DNA of 64,000 bases from a bacterium. GTDB lineage: Bacteria; UBA8248. The position numbers and the translations under genes were made by a program. Shown in pieces: positions 9,136 through 39,436 of this stretch (positions are counted from its first letter, which is position 1; each line of letters starts with the position of its first letter). The stretch covers positions 3,264,001 through 3,328,000 of the forward strand of contig CBDBZU010000004.1 in assembly GCA_965213625.1 (NCBI GenBank). Direction: 5' to 3'. Under the pieces are notes generated by a model. The model was not told where the DNA came from. It made no database searches and saw only the letters and a list, made by a program, of their open reading frames with translations.

Positions 9136-10452
9136 CTAGTACTCGAACACCGTGGGGCCGTCCACTTTTTCGGTCAGCGCTGAAGCGGCGGCGCGTGCTG
9201 CGCCCAGGCGCCATTCACGCTCGGCCTCGGGCGTCCGGGAGGGGTCGCCGAATGGATGATGAAAATGCCCGGCGCGGTTGTTGACGATGCGGTTGACCCC
9301 GATGTCACGCGCCACGTCCGGCAGGCATGTGACGATGACGGTGGGGATGCCCTCCCGCTCGAGCGCTCTCGCCAGCGCAGCCCCGCTGCGCGTGCCGGTG
9401 CCTCACGTTGCGGGGAGCACGACGCCCTCCACCCCGGTCTTTTTGAGTTCCGCGGCCCAGGCGCGGCCGATGCCGTCCATCTCGGCGAAGGCGCCGCCGT
9501 TCCCGCAGGTGCTGTGGAAATCATCGTGGAGCTCGGCGATCTCGCCCTCCTCCGCAAGCCGCCGGAAGGCGTCCACGGCGAGCATGCGGTCCGGCTCCTC
9601 GTTCACGAACACGGTGTTGAAGCCCCCATGAATCGAGATGAACGTGCCGCCCGGCAGGGCGTCTTTCCCCTTAAAGGAGTACGTGGCCCAGTTCTCATTT
9701 CTCGAGCCGGCGAAGCGGTCCGGGTTGCCGGGGGGCACCATGCCGCCTTCGGATACGATGGCGATGCGCGCTTTTTTAAGATCGGCGATCGCCTCGGGCG
9801 GCGCAATCTCTTCCAGAACGGGAACGTCGAGTTCCGTCTCGTAGGGCTCGCCCTTGATTTTTCGTAAAACCATGTCGACGGCGCGCTGCGAAGTCGGTAG
9901 TTCGGCGACTTCGTTGTAGCGGACCCCCCGAGGCAGGTATCCCTCCTCGGCCGCATTGCCGATCTCCTCGCCCCGGGCAAGCTTGAGTCCAAGGCGGGCG
10001 GCGGCTTCCAGGGCTTCCTCCATCCCGACGGCCGAATCTGCGGCGGGTACGGTGTGGACACCGGTACCGGCAGCGGGAAAGCCCGGATTCTCGGGGTGCA
10101 TGGCAGTGACGACGGGAACGCTCGCCTCATGCGCTGCGCGGCATACGGCGGCGCAGGCCAGCCCGAAGCGCCCGGCGTTGAAAGCGGGCCCGGCGAGAAC
10201 GAGATCAGGAGAATATTCGAGAATCCTAGCGAGAGCCTCTGCGGCGCAGTCTTCCTCGTTTTCGGCGATAAGGCCGTCCCCCGCAAAGACGGTGCCGACC
10301 ACTTCGGCGTCTTCCCCCAGAATTTTATCGAGCAAAACGCCGGGGCCAACCGGGCCTGTCTGCGCAGATACAGGATGATCGCTCTTCTCCTCGCCCCCGA
10401 CGCCTGCAAAGAACTGGTTCAAGTAGTGAACGACCCGAAGTTTACCGCTCAT
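9136..10452 (-). CDS. grdB: Glycine/sarcosine/betaine reductase-family selenoprotein B (438 aa, Sec350)
   Basis: VVHYLNQFFAGVGGEEK, AGPAFNAGRFG; in-frame TGA at 9403-9405 continues as GTGTRSGAALARALEREGIPTV..NRIV..HPFGDP..PTVFEY, matching the GrdB C-terminus. Substrate subfamily uncertain. Confidence 0.93.
9375..9391 (-). promoter_or_regulatory. SECIS-like hairpin of grdB
   Basis: GCGCAGC-GGG-GCTGCGC stem-loop separated from the UGA by 11 nt. Confidence 0.7.
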
Positions 10453-10547
10453 AGCCTGGCCTCCTGTATGAATTCATTCAATTCAATATTTCAGTGTACA
10501 TGGTGAACACCCGTTTGGGCTAATATCTCCTTCACAGGCTCCCGTCC

Positions 10548-11831
10548 TCAATAATCCTTGCCCACCATGTTGTTGATGTCCTTCGCCCACTCGCTGGCGT
10601 AGTAGTCGCTGTCGGCCAGGGTGAAGGCCTCGCGGACGTTGTGTCTCTTGCCGTTGTAGAACTCGACGATTTCCGAGCCGATGACCCGCTCCACCGCCGG
10701 GGCGGCGATGCGCTCCCCCTGCATTCCCTTGGATACAATGGCGTCGGCCTCGGGCACGTGAAAGACGAGCGGGAACTCGCCTGAGCCCGGCCGGCCCACC
10801 TCGTAGATTATCGGAACGGCGCTCACGCCCATCTGCTCGAGCGCCTGGACGGTGAGCCAGTAGTCCACCGTGGAGTTGCCGCCGCCCTCAAAGGCGAGAA
10901 CCGCGCCTTCGGCCTTCAGGAGCGCGGCCAGCTTGGCCACGTATTGCGCCGAGCGCTCCTTGAGCGCCTGGTTGTCGTGGTGGCCGCGCGTGATGATCAT
11001 GCCGGCGAAATTAAGGTCCACACCGTGGCGGCGGTATAGCTCGTAGATGAGCGGTAAGTTGCAGTGCAGGTAGGTCGGCACCTTCTGCTGCGTCTTGTAG
11101 TTCGCCCCCACCACCGCGCCGTCGAGCATCTCGTTCGGGTGAATGAGGGTGGGAAGCGAATCCCCCAGATTCTTGCCGTACATGAAGGTCTGCACCATAG
11201 ACGCCTGGTGCATCACCTGATCGACAAAGACAACCCGGGGCAAATCGGGCGCGACGTCGCCGATCTCGAACGTCTCGACGCTCACAGGTTTGAGTTCCGC
11301 CGTGTGCGCGGCCAGCCGGGACGCGATTTTGAGCGTCGCCAGGCGCACGGCGTCGTCATGCGCTTCGTTCGAGGCGCCGGCCAAAGGCTCGTAGCAGGCG
11401 ACGAGGTTCGCGGTCTCTGAATTCGTGCAGTGCACGGCCCCTGGACCGGACATATCGATGATGCCTTCGCGAAAGCTCATGATGCCCGTCATGGGCCCCA
11501 GGAAATGGGTGGTGCTGATGACGCACATACCGGCCAGCTTGTGGGTGCGGCCCTGGCCGGCCGTCTTCGCCGGACCGAGGAATCCCGGAAAAGCGCAGGA
11601 GCGACCGCTTACCTTGTAGAGAGGCTCCACCGCGTCCAGCACGTTGGTGATCCGCACCGAATCGCCCGGCATGGCGGCGTCAAAGCGCACGTCCTCGAGA
11701 CCGCCGTCTTCGAGCGCAAGCTCGCGCAACTCATCGGCATCCACGGTGAGCGTACCTTCTTTGTACTCAAAGCGCGCACCGATGATGATTTTCGATACGG
11801 GGAATAACCCCATCTCCAGTCGCATGGACAT
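10548..11831 (-). CDS. grdE: Reductase complex component B proprotein subunit (GrdE/GrdG/GrdI family)
   Basis: PGDSVRI..VLDAVEP..KV, GQGRTH.L.G, GIIDMSGPGA, PTLIHPNEMLDGA, KERSA, EGGGN. Confidence 0.9.
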   Translation of the reverse strand: MSMRLEMGLFPVSKIIIGARFEYKEGTLTVDADELRELALEDGGLEDVRFDAAMPGDSVRITNVLDAVEPLYKVSGRSCAFPGFLGPAKTAGQGRTHKLAGMCVISTTHFLGPMTGIMSFREGIIDMSGPGAVHCTNSETANLVACYEPLAGASNEAHDDAVRLATLKIASRLAAHTAELKPVSVETFEIGDVAPDLPRVVFVDQVMHQASMVQTFMYGKNLGDSLPTLIHPNEMLDGAVVGANYKTQQKVPTYLHCNLPLIYELYRRHGVDLNFAGMIITRGHHDNQALKERSAQYVAKLAALLKAEGAVLAFEGGGNSTVDYWLTVQALEQMGVSAVPIIYEVGRPGSGEFPLVFHVPEADAIVSKGMQGERIAAPAVERVIGSEIVEFYNGKRHNVREAFTLADSDYYASEWAKDINNMVGKDY

Positions 11832-11842
11832 CGTCGCCTCCC

Positions 11843-12295
11843 CTATCCGGCCGTGCGCATCGAGGCCAGGTCGCTTTCTATCTGCTCCAGATCGAGCACC
11901 ATTTCCATCATGAGGAGCTTTTCGGCGTACAGATTCTCTGGAACCTGGGCGCGCACCTTCTCTTCTAGAATGTGAAAAACGGGGAGTCCCAACGAGACTC
12001 CCGCCAGGGGCCCGGCCCAGCTGGGGTCCCCGGTGGTCAGCGTTTCGGCTGCGAGCCGAAGGCCTTCACCGGGCATTCCCAACACCACCATCAGGTTCTC
12101 CGACCCCACTTCATCGGCAATCGATTTGATGGCGGCCTGGTTCTCCAGGTCCATGGCGCCAGCGGAGGTTCAGACGAAACACTCCGTCTTCTGGAACACG
12201 ACCTCCGCACCCGCCGCCTCAATACACTCGGCAATCAGCGGACCGGGTACGCCGTCGCGCTCACCCAGCGCGATCACCTTCTTGCCTTTGAACAT
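11843..12295 (-). CDS. grdA: Glycine/sarcosine/betaine reductase selenoprotein A (150 aa, Sec42)
   Basis: [27 protein letters not shown](12170-12172)[11 protein letters not shown]..[12 protein letters not shown]; GGAGG RBS; downstream CCTGG-AGAA-CCAGG hairpin. Confidence 0.95.
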
Positions 12296-28741: not shown

Positions 28742-29656
28742 ATGGCCAGACCAGACATCGACACCCCCTTGCGCTCCATGCTCTTCATCCCCGGTTCGAG
28801 CGAGAAGATGGTGGGGAAAGGTCCCACCATCGAGGCGGACGCTGCCCTGTTCGATCTCGAGGATTCCGTCGCCCCCCAGATGAAGGAAGCGGCGCGCGAA
28901 CTCGTGCGCTCAGGCATCGCGGAAACGAGCAGCGCGCCCGGCGGCCCATCCACCATCCTCGTACGCGTAAACGACGTGGAATCGGGCATGCTGGATGAGG
29001 ACATCGACGCCATCGCGGTCGAAGGGCTCGACGGTATCTTCCTGCCGAAACCGGAGAGCGCGGCGGACGTGAGAACAGCCGATGCGATTTTATCGAAATA
29101 CGAGCGTGAGCGCGGCCTGGAGGAAGGCGGGGTCGGCATCATCGCCCAGATAGAGAGCGCCTCGGGCGTCGTGCATTGCTACGACATCTGCAAGGCGGCG
29201 GATCGCGTTGTGGGCGTGAACTTGGGCAGTGCTGAGGATGCGGACCTCTGCCGCAGCCTGGGGGCCACCTGGACGGAAGACGGAACCACGCTCCTCTACA
29301 CGCGGAGCAAGGTGCTCGTCGAGGCGCGCGCAGCAGCCTTGCCCCACCCCACCGACGGCGTCTACATGCGTTTACAGGACGACGACGGCTGCCGCGCGGA
29401 CGCGGAGTTCGCCAAAAAACTCGGCTATACCGGCAAGGCGGCCATTCACCCGAGGCAGGTACCCATTTTCAACGACGTCTACTCGCCGAGCGAGGAGGAG
29501 ATCTCCTACTACACCGAGATGGCCGAAGCCTACCGCGAGGGCGAGGCGCAGGGTCTCGGCGCGGTTTCCTTCCAGGGGAAGATGATCGATATCGCCATGG
29601 TCAAGCATGCGGATAACGTGCTCGCGCGCGCCCGCGCCATCGCCGAAAAAGCATAG
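28742..29656 (+). CDS. HpcH/HpaI-CitE family CoA-ester lyase
   Basis: RSMLFIPG, DLEDSV, VRVN, LPK, IESA.G, GK.AIHP.Q, GKMID. Confidence 0.9.
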   Translation: MARPDIDTPLRSMLFIPGSSEKMVGKGPTIEADAALFDLEDSVAPQMKEAARELVRSGIAETSSAPGGPSTILVRVNDVESGMLDEDIDAIAVEGLDGIFLPKPESAADVRTADAILSKYERERGLEEGGVGIIAQIESASGVVHCYDICKAADRVVGVNLGSAEDADLCRSLGATWTEDGTTLLYTRSKVLVEARAAALPHPTDGVYMRLQDDDGCRADAEFAKKLGYTGKAAIHPRQVPIFNDVYSPSEEEISYYTEMAEAYREGEAQGLGAVSFQGKMIDIAMVKHADNVLARARAIAEKA

Positions 29657-29666
29657 GCTTAAGCAA

Positions 29667-30692
29667 ATGGCGGATCCATCAGACCTTATCGAACATTTTT
29701 TCGCGCAGCCCTGGTCCGACGGCCTGCCCGTCGTCGTCCCGACCGAAGAGCGCTTATCCACAATGCTAGCGAACCACGCGCCCGATGCGCTCATCGGCCA
29801 TGTGCCGCCAGCGAACCATCCCGCGACTACCGAGGCCGTGGCAATTCACGCCGTCATGGCGGGTTGTAAGCCAGAATATTTTCCGGCGCTGTTATGCGCG
29901 CTCTCCTGCATTCTGGACCCAAGCTTCAACATGAACGGTATCCAGGCCACGATGAACCCCGCCGGCCCCCTCATCGTCATGAACGGCCCCTACCCCCGCG
30001 AAATCGGCGTACACGGCGGTACGGGCTGCCTGGGACCGGGTTTCCGGGCGAACGCGACCATCGGCCGCGCGCTACGACTCATGCTCCTGAACCTGGGTGG
30101 GGGGATTCCCGGCGTGGTGGATATGAGCACGTTCGGCAGCCCGAGCAAATTCGCCTACTGCCTGCGCGAGAACGAGGAAATCAGCCCCTGGCCCTCACTG
30201 GCCGTAGAACGCGGATTCGCGAAGGATGAGAACGTCGTCACCGCCTGTGCGGGGGAAGGTCCGCGCGTCGCGCTCGATGATTCGAGCGATCATCTCGACG
30301 GCGTGCTCACCACGATTGCGAGCACCATCTCCACCATGGGCACGCGCCACGCCTACTCGCCCGTTGGCCTCACGGTCATCATGGGGCCGGAACACGCCCA
30401 GCTTCTCGCCGACCACGGCTTCAGCCGGGACGACGCCAAACAAGGCCTCGTCGAGCGAGCTCAGCTGCCCGTAGGGCTGCTAAAGCGCGGCGGACGCTAT
30501 CGTGGTAAAGATAAAAGCGAATGGCCCGATTGGGTGGATCACGACGACGATGACTGCATGGCGCCCATGATCCGAAAACCCGAAGACGTGACCCTCTTGG
30601 TGGCCGGCGGCCTGCCCGGGCCGTCCTCGTTCATTATCCCGGGATGGAACAACACCAACCGGCCCGTCTCCAAGTCGTTCGTGGTGGTGTAG
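29667..30692 (+). CDS. Conserved hypothetical protein (WSDGLPV.PT family, often adjacent to UGSC-type redoxins)
   Basis: WSDGLPVVVPTEER, AIHAVMAGCKPEY, GPGFRANATIGRALRL, ENEE.SPW. Confidence 0.75.
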   Translation: MADPSDLIEHFFAQPWSDGLPVVVPTEERLSTMLANHAPDALIGHVPPANHPATTEAVAIHAVMAGCKPEYFPALLCALSCILDPSFNMNGIQATMNPAGPLIVMNGPYPREIGVHGGTGCLGPGFRANATIGRALRLMLLNLGGGIPGVVDMSTFGSPSKFAYCLRENEEISPWPSLAVERGFAKDENVVTACAGEGPRVALDDSSDHLDGVLTTIASTISTMGTRHAYSPVGLTVIMGPEHAQLLADHGFSRDDAKQGLVERAQLPVGLLKRGGRYRGKDKSEWPDWVDHDDDDCMAPMIRKPEDVTLLVAGGLPGPSSFIIPGWNNTNRPVSKSFVVV

Positions 30693-33073: not shown

Positions 33074-33169
33074 TTAGGGTTTTTTCAGAACCCTCTTCCG
33101 GTGGTGAGCCGTTTTCAGCACCCTCCGGAGAGATGTGTTGTAGGCGGTTACTATCAAGTTCCTTACCAT
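33074..33169 (-). CDS. Putative 31-aa basic small protein MVRNLIVTAYNTSLRRVLKTAHHRKRVLKKP (or ORF inside a structured sRNA)
   Basis: AGGAGGG RBS 5 nt before ATG; own promoter and terminator; below the ORF-track size cutoff. Confidence 0.5.
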   Translation of the reverse strand: MVRNLIVTAYNTSLRRVLKTAHHRKRVLKKP

Positions 33170-33360: not shown

Positions 33361-34467
33361 TTACGCCTCGATGATGGCGGAGACCACCCCTCCGCCCACG
33401 GGTCCCTGATGGAACACGAGGCCGGCCGAGACGTATACCGCCGGGTCCTGCACCACCGAGGCGATGACGGCGTTCGCCACGGCGCGCACGGGCCGCGTGC
33501 CCAGAACCGAATCCGTAAGCAGCGTGACCCGCTTACCCAGAAGCCTGCCGTCCCAGGGAGCGCCCGCCTTTGCAAACGCGTGCACCACCCGCTTCAATTC
33601 CTCCACACCCGGCAAGCCGTCAAAGGCCAGTCCTGCATTCTTGAGCGCCTGCCTCACGGCGTCCGCGTCGATCAGGTGCTGCATCACCGCCCGGCCGATC
33701 TTGTAGCGGCTCACGGATTGTGAGGAATTCGCCAGTACGACGACTTCAGAGCGCATGAGTTCCACGCCCGCCGAGCAGGAGATCATCTCAGAATACAGGT
33801 CGCCCCGGCTGCACACGTCCGATATCTCGAAAGACGCCCTGTCGATCTCCCCGATACCCACCGCCGCGCCCAGGGCCGAACAGCCGTTCGAGAGGCTCAT
33901 CGAGCGCGTAGTATCCGTGCTCACCACCTTCTTGCCGCGAGAGGCCGCATCGTTGATCCGGTCCGAGGTGAGCAGCGGGCATTTCACCTGCACGTAACCC
34001 ACGTCATCCAGCGAATCCACGCCCGCCTTATCGAGCGCCTCCGCCGCCGCCTCGGCCACCAAGTCCACCTGCGCCATCGTGCCCAACTCCTCGGGCAGCA
34101 GCTCTCGGGTGAAGGCGACTCCCATCGAGAGGCGCTTCTCCCCCGGGCTTTCTGCATCACCCACGTCGGTCTTGGAAATGGCCACCGCGTGGGGACTCAT
34201 GATCCCCTCGCATCCGCCCGACATCACCATCGCGCACATGCCCTGCACCTCGTCGCGGGAGAGGCCCAGCTTCTCCATCATGTAGTCCTCGAAGGAATGG
34301 AGCGCATAGGGCCTCGAATAGTCGTTCACCCGGCCGTTTCCCTCCGTCTTGGCGATGATGGCCTGAATGTCCGCCGCCTGAATGCGGCCTTCCGCCACTG
34401 CATCCGCGAGGCCCGAGACGTCCTCGGGTCCTGCCATCTGAAACTTCACCACCTGGGTATCAAACAC
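33361..34467 (-). CDS. Ring-opening cyclic amide hydrolase (cyanuric acid hydrolase/barbiturase family)
   Basis: KTEGNG.VNDYSR, MSGGCEG..SPH, VQVKCPLLT, SAGVEL, HQGP.GGG. Confidence 0.92.
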   Translation of the reverse strand: MFDTQVVKFQMAGPEDVSGLADAVAEGRIQAADIQAIIAKTEGNGRVNDYSRPYALHSFEDYMMEKLGLSRDEVQGMCAMVMSGGCEGIMSPHAVAISKTDVGDAESPGEKRLSMGVAFTRELLPEELGTMAQVDLVAEAAAEALDKAGVDSLDDVGYVQVKCPLLTSDRINDAASRGKKVVSTDTTRSMSLSNGCSALGAAVGIGEIDRASFEISDVCSRGDLYSEMISCSAGVELMRSEVVVLANSSQSVSRYKIGRAVMQHLIDADAVRQALKNAGLAFDGLPGVEELKRVVHAFAKAGAPWDGRLLGKRVTLLTDSVLGTRPVRAVANAVIASVVQDPAVYVSAGLVFHQGPVGGGVVSAIIEA

Positions 34468-34515
34468 GATTCAGTCTCCTTATTCATCAAGGGCGCCCGA
34501 TGCATGAACGCCGTG

Positions 34516-35919
34516 TCAATCTCCCGGAACCATCAAACCCGCGCGCTCGACGATGGCTGTGGAGGCCGCCTGCGCTTCCTCGCGAATCGCGCGCTCCTCA
34601 TCCTCGCTCATCTTGCTCAGGCGTCCCGCCTCCATGAGCGGCTCGCCATCCACCCAGACCCAGCGCACCTCCGTCCCGTGGGTCTGATACGCGAGAACAG
34701 AAGGCAAATGATGATTCGGGAGCATATGCGGGCCGCTCATGTCGAGCAGAATCATGTCCGCCCGCTTGCCCACCTCGATGCTCCCTGTCTCCGCTTCGAG
34801 TCCGAGCGCGCGCGCCCCATTGCGCGTGGCCATATCAAGCACCTGCTGCGCCGTGATGGCGGCGGGATCCTGATGCACCCCTTTATGGAGCAGGCAGGCG
34901 AGCCTTATCTCCCAGAACATGTTTACCAGATCGTTGCAGTTAGCGTTGTCAGTCCCCAAGGCCACGGGTATTCCGTAGCCCAGCATGCGGGGCACAGGCG
35001 ACACGCCCGAACCCAGATACATGTTGCTCGATGGGAGATGCACCACCTGAGTTCCTGATTCCTTCAAGAGCCGAATGTCCTCCTCGCTCAAGTGGATGCA
35101 GTGGCCGGCGACGAGGCGCTCCGAGAGCAGCCCCCAGGCCGCCAGGTGCTGTACGACGGGAAGACCGCCCACTTCCGATTCCATGGGGTCTTCCGATACG
35201 TGCGTGGAAACGCGGAGCCCGCGCGCTCCGGCCCATTCATCCACCTCGCGGAAGGTCTCCGGCTTCACGTAAACGGGGATGTTCGGCCCTGGCCAGACGA
35301 GAACGCGTCCCGCCGAGCGGCCGTGGTATTTATCCACCAGATGGGATGTCTCCTCGAACACCTCTTCCCTCGTCTTGAGGCTGGGCGGAAAGGTCTTGCC
35401 CCATGCGGCGATGTGGGAGTGCGCCCGCTCGGCGAGTTTTCCAGAAGGAGATATTTCGTTGAAACTCAAAGCGAAAACGCTCCGCATACCCGAATCGTCC
35501 ATGGCCTCTATCATCGCTTCGGCCAATGGGATGGGGACGCGCTCGTTCGTCACTACCGCCGTGGTGCCCGAGCGAATCGCCTCGCACGCGAAGAGTTTGA
35601 CGGAGAGCGCCGCATCCTCCGGCGTATAGGCAACCTGGCCGGGCGCCATGACGTTCAGTCGCCAGTCCATCAGCCGCCTGTCCGCGCCCAGGCCGCCGCG
35701 CAGCAGAATGCACATGATGTGGCTGTGGGCGTTCACCAACCCCGGCATGAGGGCCATTCCCTCGCCATCTACAACCTGCGCTGCGCCGGCATTAATCTTG
35801 GACTCTGAAACATCGGCGACCCGGCCATCCTCGACCAGCACGGATGCGCGAGGGATGACCTGACGCGTCTCGTCTTGCGTCAGGACGCAGGCGTTTTCGA
35901 CCACGAAACGACCCGCCAT
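34516..35919 (-). CDS. AtzA/TriA-like metal-dependent amidohydrolase
   Basis: NAHSH..ILLRGG, DW..NV..PGQ, EAIRSGTT, HVSE, GHC.H, GTDNANCND, GKRAD. Confidence 0.9.
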   Translation of the reverse strand: MAGRFVVENACVLTQDETRQVIPRASVLVEDGRVADVSESKINAGAAQVVDGEGMALMPGLVNAHSHIMCILLRGGLGADRRLMDWRLNVMAPGQVAYTPEDAALSVKLFACEAIRSGTTAVVTNERVPIPLAEAMIEAMDDSGMRSVFALSFNEISPSGKLAERAHSHIAAWGKTFPPSLKTREEVFEETSHLVDKYHGRSAGRVLVWPGPNIPVYVKPETFREVDEWAGARGLRVSTHVSEDPMESEVGGLPVVQHLAAWGLLSERLVAGHCIHLSEEDIRLLKESGTQVVHLPSSNMYLGSGVSPVPRMLGYGIPVALGTDNANCNDLVNMFWEIRLACLLHKGVHQDPAAITAQQVLDMATRNGARALGLEAETGSIEVGKRADMILLDMSGPHMLPNHHLPSVLAYQTHGTEVRWVWVDGEPLMEAGRLSKMSEDEERAIREEAQAASTAIVERAGLMVPGD

Positions 35920-36062: not shown

Positions 36063-36458
36063 ATGTCCAAGATCAAATTCCTGCAGCATTTCAGCATCTA
36101 TTGCCGGGATTTACCGGCCATGCACAAATTCTACAACGAAATTCTGGAACTTCCCGAAATGCCCCGCCCGCACTTCCCCTTCCCGGGTTACTGGTACGAG
36201 GCGGGAACGGACCACCAGATCCATCTCGCCAAGGTGAGCGATACGCACGTGTCCCACTCAATCAGCGATAATGAGGATGGATACATGGACCACCACTTCG
36301 GGATGGTGACCGAAGATCTCGAGGGGATGAAGGAGCGGCTCAAGGCGCATGGCGTCCCGTTTCACGATGAGCCTTACGGCTACCCCCAAATTTTCTTCAG
36401 AGACCCGGAGAACAACCTGATCGAGGTCGCGTCCACCGCGATGTTCGAAATGGAGTAA
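36063..36458 (+). CDS. VOC/glyoxalase family protein
   Basis: H.SI...D.....FY..ILEL, HFG, FFRDPENNLIE. Confidence 0.9.
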   Translation: MSKIKFLQHFSIYCRDLPAMHKFYNEILELPEMPRPHFPFPGYWYEAGTDHQIHLAKVSDTHVSHSISDNEDGYMDHHFGMVTEDLEGMKERLKAHGVPFHDEPYGYPQIFFRDPENNLIEVASTAMFEME

Positions 36459-36592
36459 CCGGCGCGCGACGAGGGTGGGTGCGCACTCCGCCTTGGTCTC
36501 ACTATGTACCGGCTGTCAAGGTTGTAATTGCGGCGATGGAGCGTCATCGCTCCCCCATCGTGGCTTGTCCGATGATTTCTGGAGACAAAATC

Positions 36593-36985
36593 ATGTCATT
36601 TCAAAAATTCCACACCACGCATGTAACCGCCGGGGCGGGAAGCTACTCCCAGGGCCTTCTCGCGGGCAGGACGCTTTATCTCGCGGGCCAGACCGGAGAG
36701 GGGCTCGACGGCGCACCGCCCGCCCTCGGCGACGCGGCGGCCCAGGCTCGACAGGCGTGCGAGAACATAAAGCAGCTCCTCGAAGAGGCGGGCGGCAACC
36801 TCTCCCATGTCGTGAAGCTCACGAACTACATCACCGACAGGGCGTACCGGAAACCCGTCTACGCGGTGATCGCGGAATATTTCGGCCCCCATGCGCCCGC
36901 GAGCACGGGCGTGATCGTAGACGGGCTGGCCTCAGAGGATTTTCTCGTGGAAATCGACGCCACGGCCTATATTCCCGAAGCTTGA
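36593..36985 (+). CDS. Rid (YjgF/YER057c/UK114) family protein lacking the catalytic Arg
   Basis: YSQG, LAGQ, PAST.V.V.GL, LVEIDA. Confidence 0.88.
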   Translation: MSFQKFHTTHVTAGAGSYSQGLLAGRTLYLAGQTGEGLDGAPPALGDAAAQARQACENIKQLLEEAGGNLSHVVKLTNYITDRAYRKPVYAVIAEYFGPHAPASTGVIVDGLASEDFLVEIDATAYIPEA

Positions 36986-37093
36986 GAGGAAATGGCGTAT
37001 TGAGTAATGCGCCTTAACAAGGCAGAATAGTGACACATACAGACAAGTTCGTAAGCAGCCCGTGTGGCTGAGTCCTTTCAGAGGAGAGGGATC

Positions 37094-38680
37094 ATGACCG
37101 AATCTTACGATGGATTGTTCGTCGGCGGCGGACACAATAGCCTGGTATGCGCCGCCTATCTGGCGAAAGCCGGGAAAAAGGTAGCCGTACTGGAACGCTC
37201 AGGCATCGCCGGCGGTGGCTGCTCCACGCATGAAGTCACCCTGCCGGGCTTCAAGCACAACCTGCATTCGAACTACTACGTGGGTTTGGAGAGAAGCCCC
37301 ATCCTCAGCGACCTGGAACTCCACGAATACGGCTTCAGCCTCATCTTCCCGGAGTTTCAACAGGGCTGCGCCTTCAGCGACGGCACGGCGTTCGTCATCC
37401 ACCGCGACGTGGAAAAGACCGTCAAATCTATCGAGCGGATCAACAAAAACGACGCGAAAACCTACCGCGACCTCCACGTCAAATTCACCGAGGGGATGCT
37501 CGATATCATCACCTCCTTCATGTACTGCGCCCCCCTGCCGCCCGAGGAATTGAAAGAGCGCTTCGCGGGGCCGCTGGGACGTGAGTTCCTAAGCTATGCG
37601 AACCTCAGCATGTACGAGGCGGTGGACCAGCATTTCGAGGACGACAGGCTGCGCGTGCTGTTCAAGCTCTTCCTCGGATCCTTCACCCTCGAGAATACGC
37701 CAACAACCGGCATTTTCTTTCCGAGAATCTTCTCGCGCATCGCTAGCTTCGCCCTGCCCGTGGGCGGGTCGGTGAACTTCACCCGCGCGCTCGAGCGCGT
37801 GGTCGTGAGAGGCGGCGGAAAGGTGCTCACCAACGCGGAAGTCCGCGAGATCACGGTCGAAAGTGGTGACGCAACCGGCGTCATACTGGAAGACGGCACC
37901 CGCATCGAGGCCACCGAGTTCGTGGCAAGCGGTGTGAACTGGCCGCTCACTGTGCGCCTGGCCGGGGAGGATTACTTCGGCGGCAGGCTCGCCAGGGCGG
38001 CGCTCGAGTTCCAGTGGGCGAGCCACGGGCTTTGCACCATCCACCTCGCGCTCAAGGAAGCGCCCGACTTCAAGGCCGCGAAATTCGATCCCGACATCAA
38101 CAAGACGTTCAACATCTTCTGGGGCGCGGATTCGACCGAGGAGATCAACGAGTGCTTCGAAACAATCCACGACGGCGAACTGCCCAAGCTCATGGGCAAC
38201 GGCGGGAGCAACAGCCACTTCGACCCGACCTATTCGCCCGACGGCACGCACGTGGGCTACTGGTGGCCGTTTGCGCCCTATGAACTCAAAGACGGCGGGG
38301 CCGAGGCGTGGGACACGCGGCGCGAGGAGTACACCCAGCACTTCATCGACTCCTGGAAGCCCTATGCGCCCAACATCAACCACGACAACATCATGGGCAG
38401 CTATCTCTACACGCCGCTCGACATCGTGCGCATGAACCCGAACTTCGTCCGTGCGAGCCACCACGTGGGCGCCTACATTCCCGAGCAACTCGGCTACAAC
38501 CGCCCGCATCCGGAAGTGAGCGACTTCCGCACGCCTGTCGGGAAACTGTATCTCTGCGGTTCTAGCTCACACGTGGGCGGTGCGGTGACGGGTGCGCCCG
38601 GCTACAACTGCGCGAACGCGATCGCCGAGGATCTGCACATCGATCGCTTCTGGGCGCCGGTCGAAACCATGATGGCCTGA
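37094..38680 (+). CDS. Phytoene-dehydrogenase-like FAD-dependent oxidoreductase
   Basis: GGGHNSL..AAYL, GGG..T.E.TLPGF.H, TP.D, RTPV..LYLCGS..H.GG.V.G.PGYN. Confidence 0.88.
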   Translation: MTESYDGLFVGGGHNSLVCAAYLAKAGKKVAVLERSGIAGGGCSTHEVTLPGFKHNLHSNYYVGLERSPILSDLELHEYGFSLIFPEFQQGCAFSDGTAFVIHRDVEKTVKSIERINKNDAKTYRDLHVKFTEGMLDIITSFMYCAPLPPEELKERFAGPLGREFLSYANLSMYEAVDQHFEDDRLRVLFKLFLGSFTLENTPTTGIFFPRIFSRIASFALPVGGSVNFTRALERVVVRGGGKVLTNAEVREITVESGDATGVILEDGTRIEATEFVASGVNWPLTVRLAGEDYFGGRLARAALEFQWASHGLCTIHLALKEAPDFKAAKFDPDINKTFNIFWGADSTEEINECFETIHDGELPKLMGNGGSNSHFDPTYSPDGTHVGYWWPFAPYELKDGGAEAWDTRREEYTQHFIDSWKPYAPNINHDNIMGSYLYTPLDIVRMNPNFVRASHHVGAYIPEQLGYNRPHPEVSDFRTPVGKLYLCGSSSHVGGAVTGAPGYNCANAIAEDLHIDRFWAPVETMMA

Positions 38681-38725
38681 AGATGAAAATTTGACTCGCG
38701 TTATTTGAGGAAAGGATAAAATTTC

Positions 38726-39436
38726 ATGGAACTGATCGACCTCTCACAAACTGTGGCGGCGGGCGGATTCGAGCGCCCGTTCCACCCCAAGGTGGCCATT
38801 GAGCCGATGATGACGCACGAGGAGTCGTCCGGAAGATTTCACGGGAAATTCTCTTTCGCCGCCATGAAGCTCACGCTCTCGGATCACACCGGAAGCCACG
38901 TGGACGCCCTGAACCATTACGTGCCCGGAGACGCCCCCTCCATCGACCAGTTGCCGCTCGATCGCTTCTATTCGGGTGCTATCTGTGTGGATTTTTCGGA
39001 CATCGCGCCCAAGACCTACATCGAAACCGAGCACATCGAGCGCGAACTGGAAAAACACGGGCTTTCCATCGAAGAAGGCGACGCTTTTTTGTATTACACG
39101 GGCCATTTCGAGAAGAGCTTCAAAAACCCCGACCCCGATGTATGGTGGAAGGAATTCGCAGGATTAAGCCGGCCCGCCACCGAGTATCTCGCCGATCGGG
39201 GCGTTCGCAACATCGGCTGTGAGGCGTTCACGATAGAAAACCCCACGCAGATGTTCCCCGAATCGGAAGAACCCTACCCGTCTCATCAGGTGTGCAAGGA
39301 GCGGGGGATGCTCAACACGGAGAATCTGGTGATCCCCAAGCGCCTGGTGGGCAAGCGCTTCACGTTCCTGTGCCTGCCCATCAAGCTGAAAGACGCCACC
39401 GGCTCCCCGGTGCGCGCCGTGGCGGTACTGGACTGA
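38726..39436 (+). CDS. Cyclase / kynurenine formamidase-family metal hydrolase
   Basis: HTGSHVDA..H, ENL, GSPVRAVA. Confidence 0.9.
   Translation: MELIDLSQTVAAGGFERPFHPKVAIEPMMTHEESSGRFHGKFSFAAMKLTLSDHTGSHVDALNHYVPGDAPSIDQLPLDRFYSGAICVDFSDIAPKTYIETEHIERELEKHGLSIEEGDAFLYYTGHFEKSFKNPDPDVWWKEFAGLSRPATEYLADRGVRNIGCEAFTIENPTQMFPESEEPYPSHQVCKERGMLNTENLVIPKRLVGKRFTFLCLPIKLKDATGSPVRAVAVLD

What the first reader, a model, noticed from the sequence alone, without database searches (positions are those of the whole stretch)
33361..34467. Toblerone-fold amidase with mixed cyanuric-acid-hydrolase and barbiturase signatures, paired with the AtzA-like gene
Seen: SMSLSNG, AKAG, TRPVRA and YVSAGLVFHQGP; the gene starts 48 bp after the amidohydrolase. 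Known (recalled): cyanuric acid hydrolases have Arg in S..SRG, a metal-binding Glu in AKAE and SGGxEHQGP; barbiturases have Asn at that Arg position and SVSAAHQGP. Here the Asn is barbiturase-like, the TR..RA segment is AtzD-like, the Glu is lost and the last motif has a one-residue insertion. Inference: a two-step deamination plus ring-opening module for an asymmetric triazine or pyrimidine, possibly an undescribed pathway.
Basis: partly seen in the sequence, partly recalled or inferred. Interest (0 to 1): 0.75.

Follow-up and report, generated by a model that had tools for sequence, protein, structure and literature searches.

The report
Unclassified ring-opening amidase with deaminase partner
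This gene belongs to an untested branch of the enzyme family that opens cyanuric acid and barbituric acid rings; one corner of its active site is rebuilt and it travels with a relative of the atrazine/melamine-degrading enzymes, which points to a two-step breakdown route for a nitrogen ring compound that is not yet identified.

Summary
The ORF, its motifs and the 48-bp gap are as described. The protein is a Toblerone-fold amidase (model TM 0.96 to Moorella cyanuric acid hydrolase, CAH) with all three Ser-Lys dyads and two of three arginines. It is not a one-off mix of signatures. It belongs to a clade (97/97 support; 124 of 221 full-length relatives examined) with a fixed signature: Arg/Lys46, Asn194, no Glu297, Thr320, Arg324, Ala344 and a longer, usually aromatic, C-terminal loop. 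That matches none of the six groups in the 2013 classification. Except for the metal glutamate, the changes map to one substrate subsite and the entry channel. It fails both published CAH criteria, yet NCBIfam's CAH model accepts it. All 31 genome hits are MAGs. The AtzA/TriA-family neighbour (37% identity, metal ligands intact) lies upstream in 20 of 21 close loci, including three with different flanks, but in 0 of 10 distant ones. Best reading: ring deamination, then serine-nucleophile ring opening of an asymmetric triazine or pyrimidine dione, possibly anionic. The substrate is inferred, not shown. A CAH in which Arg46 replaces Arg194 remains possible.

The parts
33361..34467 (-). Toblerone-fold ring-opening amidohydrolase of the Arg46/Asn194 clade, 368 aa; K40/S83, K162/S232, K300/S347, R52 and R328 intact
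34516..35919 (-). Metal-dependent amidohydrolase of the AtzA/TriA subfamily, 467 aa; metal ligands and catalytic Glu intact; probable ring deaminase
34468..34515 (-). 48-bp intergenic spacer holding the ribosome-binding site of the amidase; consistent with co-transcription (inferred)
   Evidence: no terminator-like site listed between the two genes

Best explanation
The gene encodes an active cyclic-amide hydrolase from an untested clade of the AtzD/barbiturase family. In this lineage it is the second step of a two-gene module. Step 1 (inferred): the upstream mononuclear-metal enzyme hydrolyses an amino or other leaving group off a six-membered N-heterocycle to give the oxo form. Step 2 (mechanism inferred from conserved residues): Lys162-activated Ser232 attacks a ring carbonyl held by Arg52, forms an acyl-enzyme, and water releases a linear acyl-urea or biuret-type product. 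Subsites A (Arg328) and B (Arg52) still read ring carbonyls. Subsite C and the entry channel are rebuilt (Arg to Asn, its Glu partner replaced by an aromatic residue, a new Arg46, Tyr187 lost). So the physiological substrate is probably neither cyanuric nor plain barbituric acid, but a triazine or pyrimidine dione with a different group at the third position. Both enzymes gained arginines in their pockets, so an anionic substituent (for example the carboxylate of oxonate) is my first guess and an amino group (ammelide-type) my second.
For: Shown: fold and catalytic residues; fixed clade signature in 124 of 221 proteins; monophyly 97/97, and SH-aLRT 99 with the signature columns removed. From papers (passages read): R194 and the S-G-G-X-E-X-Q-G-P motif define CAH (PMC9118981); R188Q cuts CAH activity 23,000-fold and Ser226/Lys156 is the proposed dyad (PMC4051656); this Arg binds the site-C carbonyl and salt-bridges the loop Glu (PMC6557486); Cys45, Tyr188, Met191, Arg195 and Thr326 line the entry channel (PMC5366886). 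Pair: present in 20 of 21 loci at 75% identity or more, including L017, L020 and L023, which share none of the other 19 window genes tested. The partner keeps His66/68/243/276, Asp327 and Glu246, is TriA-like at 84, 217, 219 and 331, and has Arg at pocket positions 88 and 128. Genes next to distant members include an HpxZ/AtzH gene (L003), TctC/TctABC (L014, L003) and metabolite:H+ symporters (L007, L016, L030).
Against: No activity data exist. 17 of the 20 paired loci are syntenic with the window and count as one inheritance; L017, L020 and L023 also share an upstream cupin or its remnant, so there are only about two independent contexts. L009 (76% identity) has no partner in the 650 bp before its contig ends, and 0 of 10 distant loci have it. 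The partner carries Asn328 with Cys331 and Leu84. TriA D328N was inactive on all three substrates tested, although AtzA S331C/F84L with the same triad had weak deaminase activity (PMC3387218). NCBIfam's CAH equivalog passes (398.7 against 360). Barbiturase has Asn194 and still binds a three-carbonyl ring, so Asn alone does not require a non-carbonyl group. Model coordinates were not returned, so the position of Arg46 rests on the literature. The transporter evidence is weak: the three symporter loci are close relatives.
Confidence: 0.55

Rival explanations
1. It is still a cyanuric acid hydrolase. Arg46 reaches along the entry channel to replace Arg194, the metal loop is stabilised without a metal, and the neighbour is an ammeline or ammelide deaminase that feeds it cyanurate.
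For: Closest to TrzD (47.5%) and Moorella CAH. Passes the NF052395 cutoff. Arg/Lys46 and Asn194 occur together in 124 proteins, and position 46 lines the same channel as Arg194. Calcium was not essential for Moorella CAH activity. An AtzH/HpxZ gene is adjacent in L003. A TriA-like gene and TrzD lie within about 11 kb on a Klebsiella plasmid.
Against: Both published CAH criteria fail. Even R188K costs 5,000-fold, so the geometry is strict. No biuret hydrolase, AtzEG or allophanate hydrolase was seen among the window neighbours or the locus neighbours scanned; whole genomes were not available. AtzH genes are usually not linked to atzD (PMC6219798).
Confidence: 0.2
2. It is a barbiturase-like enzyme acting on barbiturate or a 5-substituted or 2-amino barbiturate, produced by deamination of an aminopyrimidine by the neighbour.
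For: Asn194, SCSAG at the second dyad, loss of the loop Glu, and a small hydrophobic residue at 344 all resemble barbiturase. With the signature columns removed, a joint clade with barbiturases is not rejected (p-AU 0.13).
Against: It has Thr320, Arg324, Ala344 and Gly345 rather than His, Lys, Val and Ser/Ala, and lacks the metal Glu that barbiturases keep. It falls apart from barbiturases in all trees; on the full alignment a joint clade is rejected (p-AU 0.03). Identity to a barbiturase-type protein is 42.7%.
Confidence: 0.15
3. The two genes are co-inherited neighbours in a heterocycle-scavenging region but act on unrelated substrates.
For: The partner is absent from 10 of 10 distant loci and from L009; most paired loci are syntenic copies; a methyltransferase-like ORF separates the two genes in L010.
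Against: The pair is the only part shared between the window and L017, L020 and L023, in the same order and orientation with short gaps, at 64-68% and 75-79% identity.
Confidence: 0.1

Closest known systems
Cyanuric acid hydrolases AtzD, TrzD and Moorella CAH (Groups I-III of Peat 2013; PDB 4BVQ, 5T13, 6BUM)
   Same: Fold (TM 0.95-0.96), three Ser-Lys dyads, Arg52, Thr320, Arg324, Gly345; 43-50% identity
   Different: Asn for Arg194, Arg for Cys46, Thr for Tyr187, Ala for Gly344, no metal Glu297, no loop Glu, one deletion and one insertion near the channel mouth; separate clade
Barbiturase (Group VI; PDB 5HWE)
   Same: Fold (TM 0.93), Asn194, SCS at the second dyad, no loop Glu
   Different: Thr/Arg/Ala/Gly instead of His/Lys/Val/Ser-Ala; metal Glu lost; Arg46; 40-43% identity; not sister in the trees
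Groups IV and V of the family (Acidithiobacillus; Frankia protein PDB 5HY0)
   Same: Family members with a non-CAH, non-barbiturase signature
   Different: Group IV is Arg/Met-Thr/Arg/Thr/Arg and Group V lacks position 195; 34-35% identity
AtzA atrazine chlorohydrolase and TriA melamine deaminase (neighbour gene)
   Same: Best PDB hit (333 bits); same metal ligands; member of a 40-row clade with them (SH-aLRT 100)
   Different: 37% identity; Cys for Gln71, Arg at 88 and 128, Asn328 with Cys331; a separate sub-branch, while other uncharacterised proteins are up to 58% identical to TriA

Membership tests
AtzD/barbiturase (Toblerone-fold) family | PF09663 / TIGR02714 above cutoff | tested here: met
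   403.5 against 25 bits; 387.7 against 153.1
AtzD/barbiturase (Toblerone-fold) family | Three-repeat Toblerone fold | tested here: met
   Model pLDDT 96.5; TM 0.96, rmsd 1.3 A to 6BUM
AtzD/barbiturase (Toblerone-fold) family | Three Ser-Lys dyads and Arg52 | tested here: met
   K40/S83, K162/S232, K300/S347, R52
Cyanuric acid hydrolase (Groups I-III) | Arg at AtzD 194 | tested here: not met
   Asn194; criterion from PMC9118981
Cyanuric acid hydrolase (Groups I-III) | Arg at AtzD 324 and Thr at 320 | tested here: met
   R328, T324
Cyanuric acid hydrolase (Groups I-III) | Motif S-G-G-X-E-X-Q-G-P-X-G-G-G-P | tested here: not met
   SAGLVFHQGPVGGGV
Cyanuric acid hydrolase (Groups I-III) | Metal-binding Glu297 | tested here: not met
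   Gly302; 0 of 124 clade members have Glu
Cyanuric acid hydrolase (Groups I-III) | NCBIfam equivalog NF052395 above cutoff | tested here: met
   398.7 against 360; 9 of 9 other clade members tested also pass
Cyanuric acid hydrolase (Groups I-III) | Hydrolyses cyanuric acid | not testable with these tools
   needs an assay
Barbiturase (Group VI) | Asn at position 194 | tested here: met
Barbiturase (Group VI) | His320, Lys324, Val344, Ser/Ala345 | tested here: not met
   Thr, Arg, Ala, Gly
Barbiturase (Group VI) | Groups with barbiturases in a tree | tested here: inconclusive
   Separate in the free trees; joint clade p-AU 0.03 on the full alignment, 0.13 without signature columns; only two barbiturase-type rows, neither one assayed
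Barbiturase (Group VI) | Hydrolyses barbituric acid | not testable with these tools
   needs an assay
Groups IV and V | Arg/Met-Thr/Arg/Thr/Arg signature (IV), or position 195 absent (V) | tested here: not met
AtzA/TriA subfamily (neighbour) | His66, His68, His243, His276, Asp327 metal site and Glu246 | tested here: met
TriA melamine deaminase (neighbour) | Leu84, Asp328, Cys331 | tested here: not met
   Leu84 and Cys331 present, Asn at 328
AtzA atrazine chlorohydrolase (neighbour) | Phe84, Asn328, Ser331 | tested here: not met
   only Asn328 present

The most novel reading that the evidence does not exclude
The pair is an undescribed natural pathway for an anionic amino-s-triazine, such as an oxidised-purine product (amino-oxo-triazine carboxylate, deaminated to oxonate, then ring-opened). 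The clade would be a new specificity class of Toblerone enzymes, and the module would show the kind of natural chemistry from which the AtzA/TriA and AtzD families were recruited for herbicide and melamine degradation. The purine-oxidation chemistry is recalled; I saw only a reference-list title on cyanuric acid precursors from a guanine lesion.
Probability: 0.2. Interest if true: 0.8.

Novelty: new variant of a known kind. Interest (0 to 1): 0.55.

Why it matters
Cyanuric acid is described as not a known natural product (PMC4051656), so the natural substrates of this family, and of AtzA/TriA ancestors, are an open question. Here a whole clade has one subsite rebuilt and, in one lineage, a fixed partner from the AtzA/TriA subfamily. 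That gives a two-enzyme system that can be screened directly against a small panel of rings. It also matters for annotation: the clade passes NCBIfam's cyanuric acid hydrolase model and is often named so by JGI, which could inflate estimates of triazine-degrading potential. If Arg46 simply replaces Arg194, that would still be a neat second solution to the same active site.

Tried and rejected
A one-off chimera or decaying gene: rejected (clade-wide signature; dN/dS below 0.13). Fusion clue: P0187, P0168 and P0223 carry only PF09663, and the two I read (P0187, P0168) have Arg at the 194 position; no dedicated search for longer forms was run. A conserved pathway around distant members: none found; neighbours vary over 10 loci. 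The neighbour as the closest natural relative of AtzA/TriA: rejected. A haloarchaeal relative of the neighbour lies beside xanthine-dehydrogenase-type genes and a nucleobase transporter but no amidase of this family. Rfam found nothing in the window. Plasmids hold family members at 47.5% identity or less among the best 40 listed of 132. Cluster-member look-up and Atlas searches gave no result. Peat 2017 and Seffernick 2012 could not be read, and Aukema 2020 was not requested, so the clade may appear unnamed there. Paper searches found no description of this signature in the held library. No complex prediction was run; adjacency alone did not justify one.

Full report
Observation. The finding is a 368-codon ORF at 33361-34467 on the minus strand, 48 bp downstream of a 467-codon amidohydrolase at 34516-35919. 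All four quoted motifs are present. It scores 403.5 bits on PF09663, and 7 PDB sequences match, all from the AtzD/barbiturase family. An AlphaFold model from an 88-sequence alignment has pLDDT 96.5 and overlays Moorella cyanuric acid hydrolase (CAH) at TM 0.96, barbiturase at 0.93-0.94 and the Frankia enzyme at 0.91. dN/dS against 5 related loci is 0.04-0.09 for the amidase and 0.07-0.12 for the neighbour, so both genes are maintained.

Active site. In pADP-1 AtzD numbering, K40, R52, S83, K162, S232, K295, T320, R324, S343 and G345 are kept. The changes are C46R, Y187T, R194N, E297G, H322P and G344A, plus a one-residue deletion before T320 and a one-residue insertion in the last loop, where Phe replaces the Glu of GGxEHQGP. 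Peat 2013 (PMC3758960; passages and the specificity section read) sorts the family into six groups by five positions. This protein reads Asn/Thr/Arg/Ala/Gly, which fits none. It fails both CAH criteria in PMC9118981 (section read). In Moorella CAH the equivalent Arg binds the site-C carbonyl and salt-bridges the loop Glu; calcium was not essential for activity, and removing the metal Glu lowered stability (PMC6557486, passages). In TrzD, Cys45, Tyr188, Met191, Arg195 and Thr326 form the entry channel (PMC5366886, passages). In Azorhizobium CAH, R188Q lowers activity 23,000-fold and R188K 5,000-fold (PMC4051656, passages). So the changes are not scattered: apart from the metal Glu they fall on subsite C and the channel above it. 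This mapping rests on the papers, because model coordinates were not returned.

A clade, not a chimera. Three searches gave 221 family proteins of 330-400 aa, including the query; shorter and longer hits were dropped. Of these, 124 have Arg/Lys46 with Asn194. None of the 124 has Glu297, all have Thr320, 123 have Arg324, 123 have Ala344, and 119 have Tyr or Phe before HQG. The searches were seeded with this clade, so 124 of 221 is not its share of the family; one search counted 5,908 family proteins among 8,000 candidates, and its best 120 were mostly members already seen. Ten other proteins have Asn194 without Arg46, and one has Arg46 with Arg194. In a 43-row tree, 17 chosen members form one branch (bootstrap/SH-aLRT 97/97), which holds at SH-aLRT 99 without the signature columns; a 119-row FastTree agrees (0.984). 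Barbiturase-type rows lie elsewhere. Forcing them together is rejected on the full alignment (p-AU 0.03) but not without the signature columns (0.13). An independent origin of Asn194 is therefore likely but not shown. Against this reading, NCBIfam's CAH equivalog accepts the protein (398.7 against 360) and 9 of 9 other members tested.

Distribution and synteny. One GTDB scan with a clade-specific pattern, which misses the Lys46 variants, gave 31 loci, all titled as MAGs. That may explain why classifications built on cultured strains lack the group (inference). Twenty-one loci are 75-97% identical to the query; 6 are labelled Nitrospinota or Nitrospinaceae and 15 only 'bacterium'. Twenty of the 21 carry the neighbour upstream in the same orientation: 19 directly, and L010 with a 1.1-kb insertion. 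Seventeen are syntenic with the window and count as one inheritance. L017, L020 and L023 share only these two genes out of 21 window genes tested, and they share an upstream cupin or its remnant with each other. L009 has no partner before its contig end. The 10 distant loci (Chloroflexota, Alpha- and Betaproteobacteria, Bacillota, unlabelled; 48-55% identity; L030 is cut by the contig end) have no orthologue of the neighbour. Their neighbours vary: HpxZ/AtzH and TctABC (L003), TctC (L014), metabolite:H+ symporters (L007, L016, L030), and an NMT1/SsuA-type ABC transporter with a distant amidohydrolase downstream (L008) (105 of 145 called ORFs scanned with Pfam, a few with adjusted starts). No biuret hydrolase, AtzEG or allophanate hydrolase was identified among them or among the 15 window proteins scanned.

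The neighbour. Its best solved relative is AtzA (333 bits), at 37% identity to AtzA and to a TriA-like gene. The metal ligands and Glu246 are intact. At the positions that separate AtzA from TriA it is TriA-like at 84, 217, 219 and 331, and AtzA-like at 255 and 328. Noor 2012 (PMC3387218, parts 1 and 2 of 4 read) shows Cys331 is the first step to deaminase activity. The Leu84/Asn328/Cys331 triad gave weak activity in the AtzA background and none in the TriA background, so melamine or atrazine is unlikely to be its substrate. Gln71 is Cys, and pocket residues Leu88 and Asp128 (listed in PMC4356373, passages) are both Arg, a pattern seen only in this lineage's orthologues. It sits in a clade with AtzA/TriA but on its own branch; other proteins are up to 58% identical to TriA.

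How it most likely works. Shown: fold, catalytic residues, clade signature, conserved pairing within one lineage. Inferred: the neighbour hydrolyses a ring amino group; the amidase then uses Ser232-Lys162 to open a ring amide held at Arg52, as proposed for CAH. The rebuilt subsite C suggests an asymmetric dione. New arginines in both pockets, and carboxylate-type transporters beside several distant members, hint at an anionic substituent such as the carboxylate of oxonate (chemistry recalled). An ammelide-type amino group is the next guess. I put this reading at 0.55, a CAH with an arginine swap at 0.2, a barbiturate-type enzyme at 0.15, and an uncoupled pair at 0.1.

Novelty. I found no description of this signature in the held library (listings seen). 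Peat 2017 and Seffernick 2012 were not available, Aukema 2020 was not requested, and no supplements were read, so the group may appear unnamed in those. I also read passages of PMC6219798 and PMC12623156. Verdict: a new variant of a known enzyme family with a probable new substrate and a directly testable partner; interest 0.55.

Noticed in passing
window 33074-33169 (-): A 31-codon basic ORF ending in a conserved RRVLKTAHxRKRVLKKP-type tail, with a GAGGAGG ribosome site, an extended sigma-70-like promoter at 33247-33219 and a terminator at 33023-32994. Intact in 17 of 17 syntenic loci, not found in L009, L017, L020 or L023. No Pfam or NCBIfam match for a 31-residue frame shifted by one codon.
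   Followed up: partly
L010 10150-11250: A methyltransferase-like ORF (judged by eye from the translation) is inserted between the amidohydrolase and the amidase.
   Followed up: no
window 36063-39436 (+): Divergent run of VOC/glyoxalase, Rid-family, FAD-dependent CrtO-like oxidoreductase and cyclase/arylformamidase-like genes. Conserved in the syntenic loci but not in L017, L020 or L023; may be a linked catabolic unit.
   Followed up: partly
P0309, P0293, P0313: Uncharacterised proteins 50-58% identical to TriA with its Gln71/Asp328/Cys331 pattern; better candidates for natural ancestors of TriA/AtzA than the window's gene.
   Followed up: no
P0124, P0135, P0147, P0034, P0081 and others: Further Toblerone groups with signatures outside the six published ones, including other Asn194 lineages and an Arg194 group lacking the metal Glu.
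   Followed up: no
window 29607-30692 (+): A conserved protein of about 350 aa with no Pfam or NCBIfam match, downstream of a CitE-like lyase; present in most syntenic loci.
   Followed up: no
window 9406-12154 (-) and L030 4754-7980: Glycine/sarcosine/betaine reductase-type genes (Pfam-confirmed in L030; window copies judged from the translations).
   Followed up: no
L016 1572-2687 and L030 1-188: One MAG carries two clade members, each directly downstream of a metabolite:H+ symporter.
   Followed up: no
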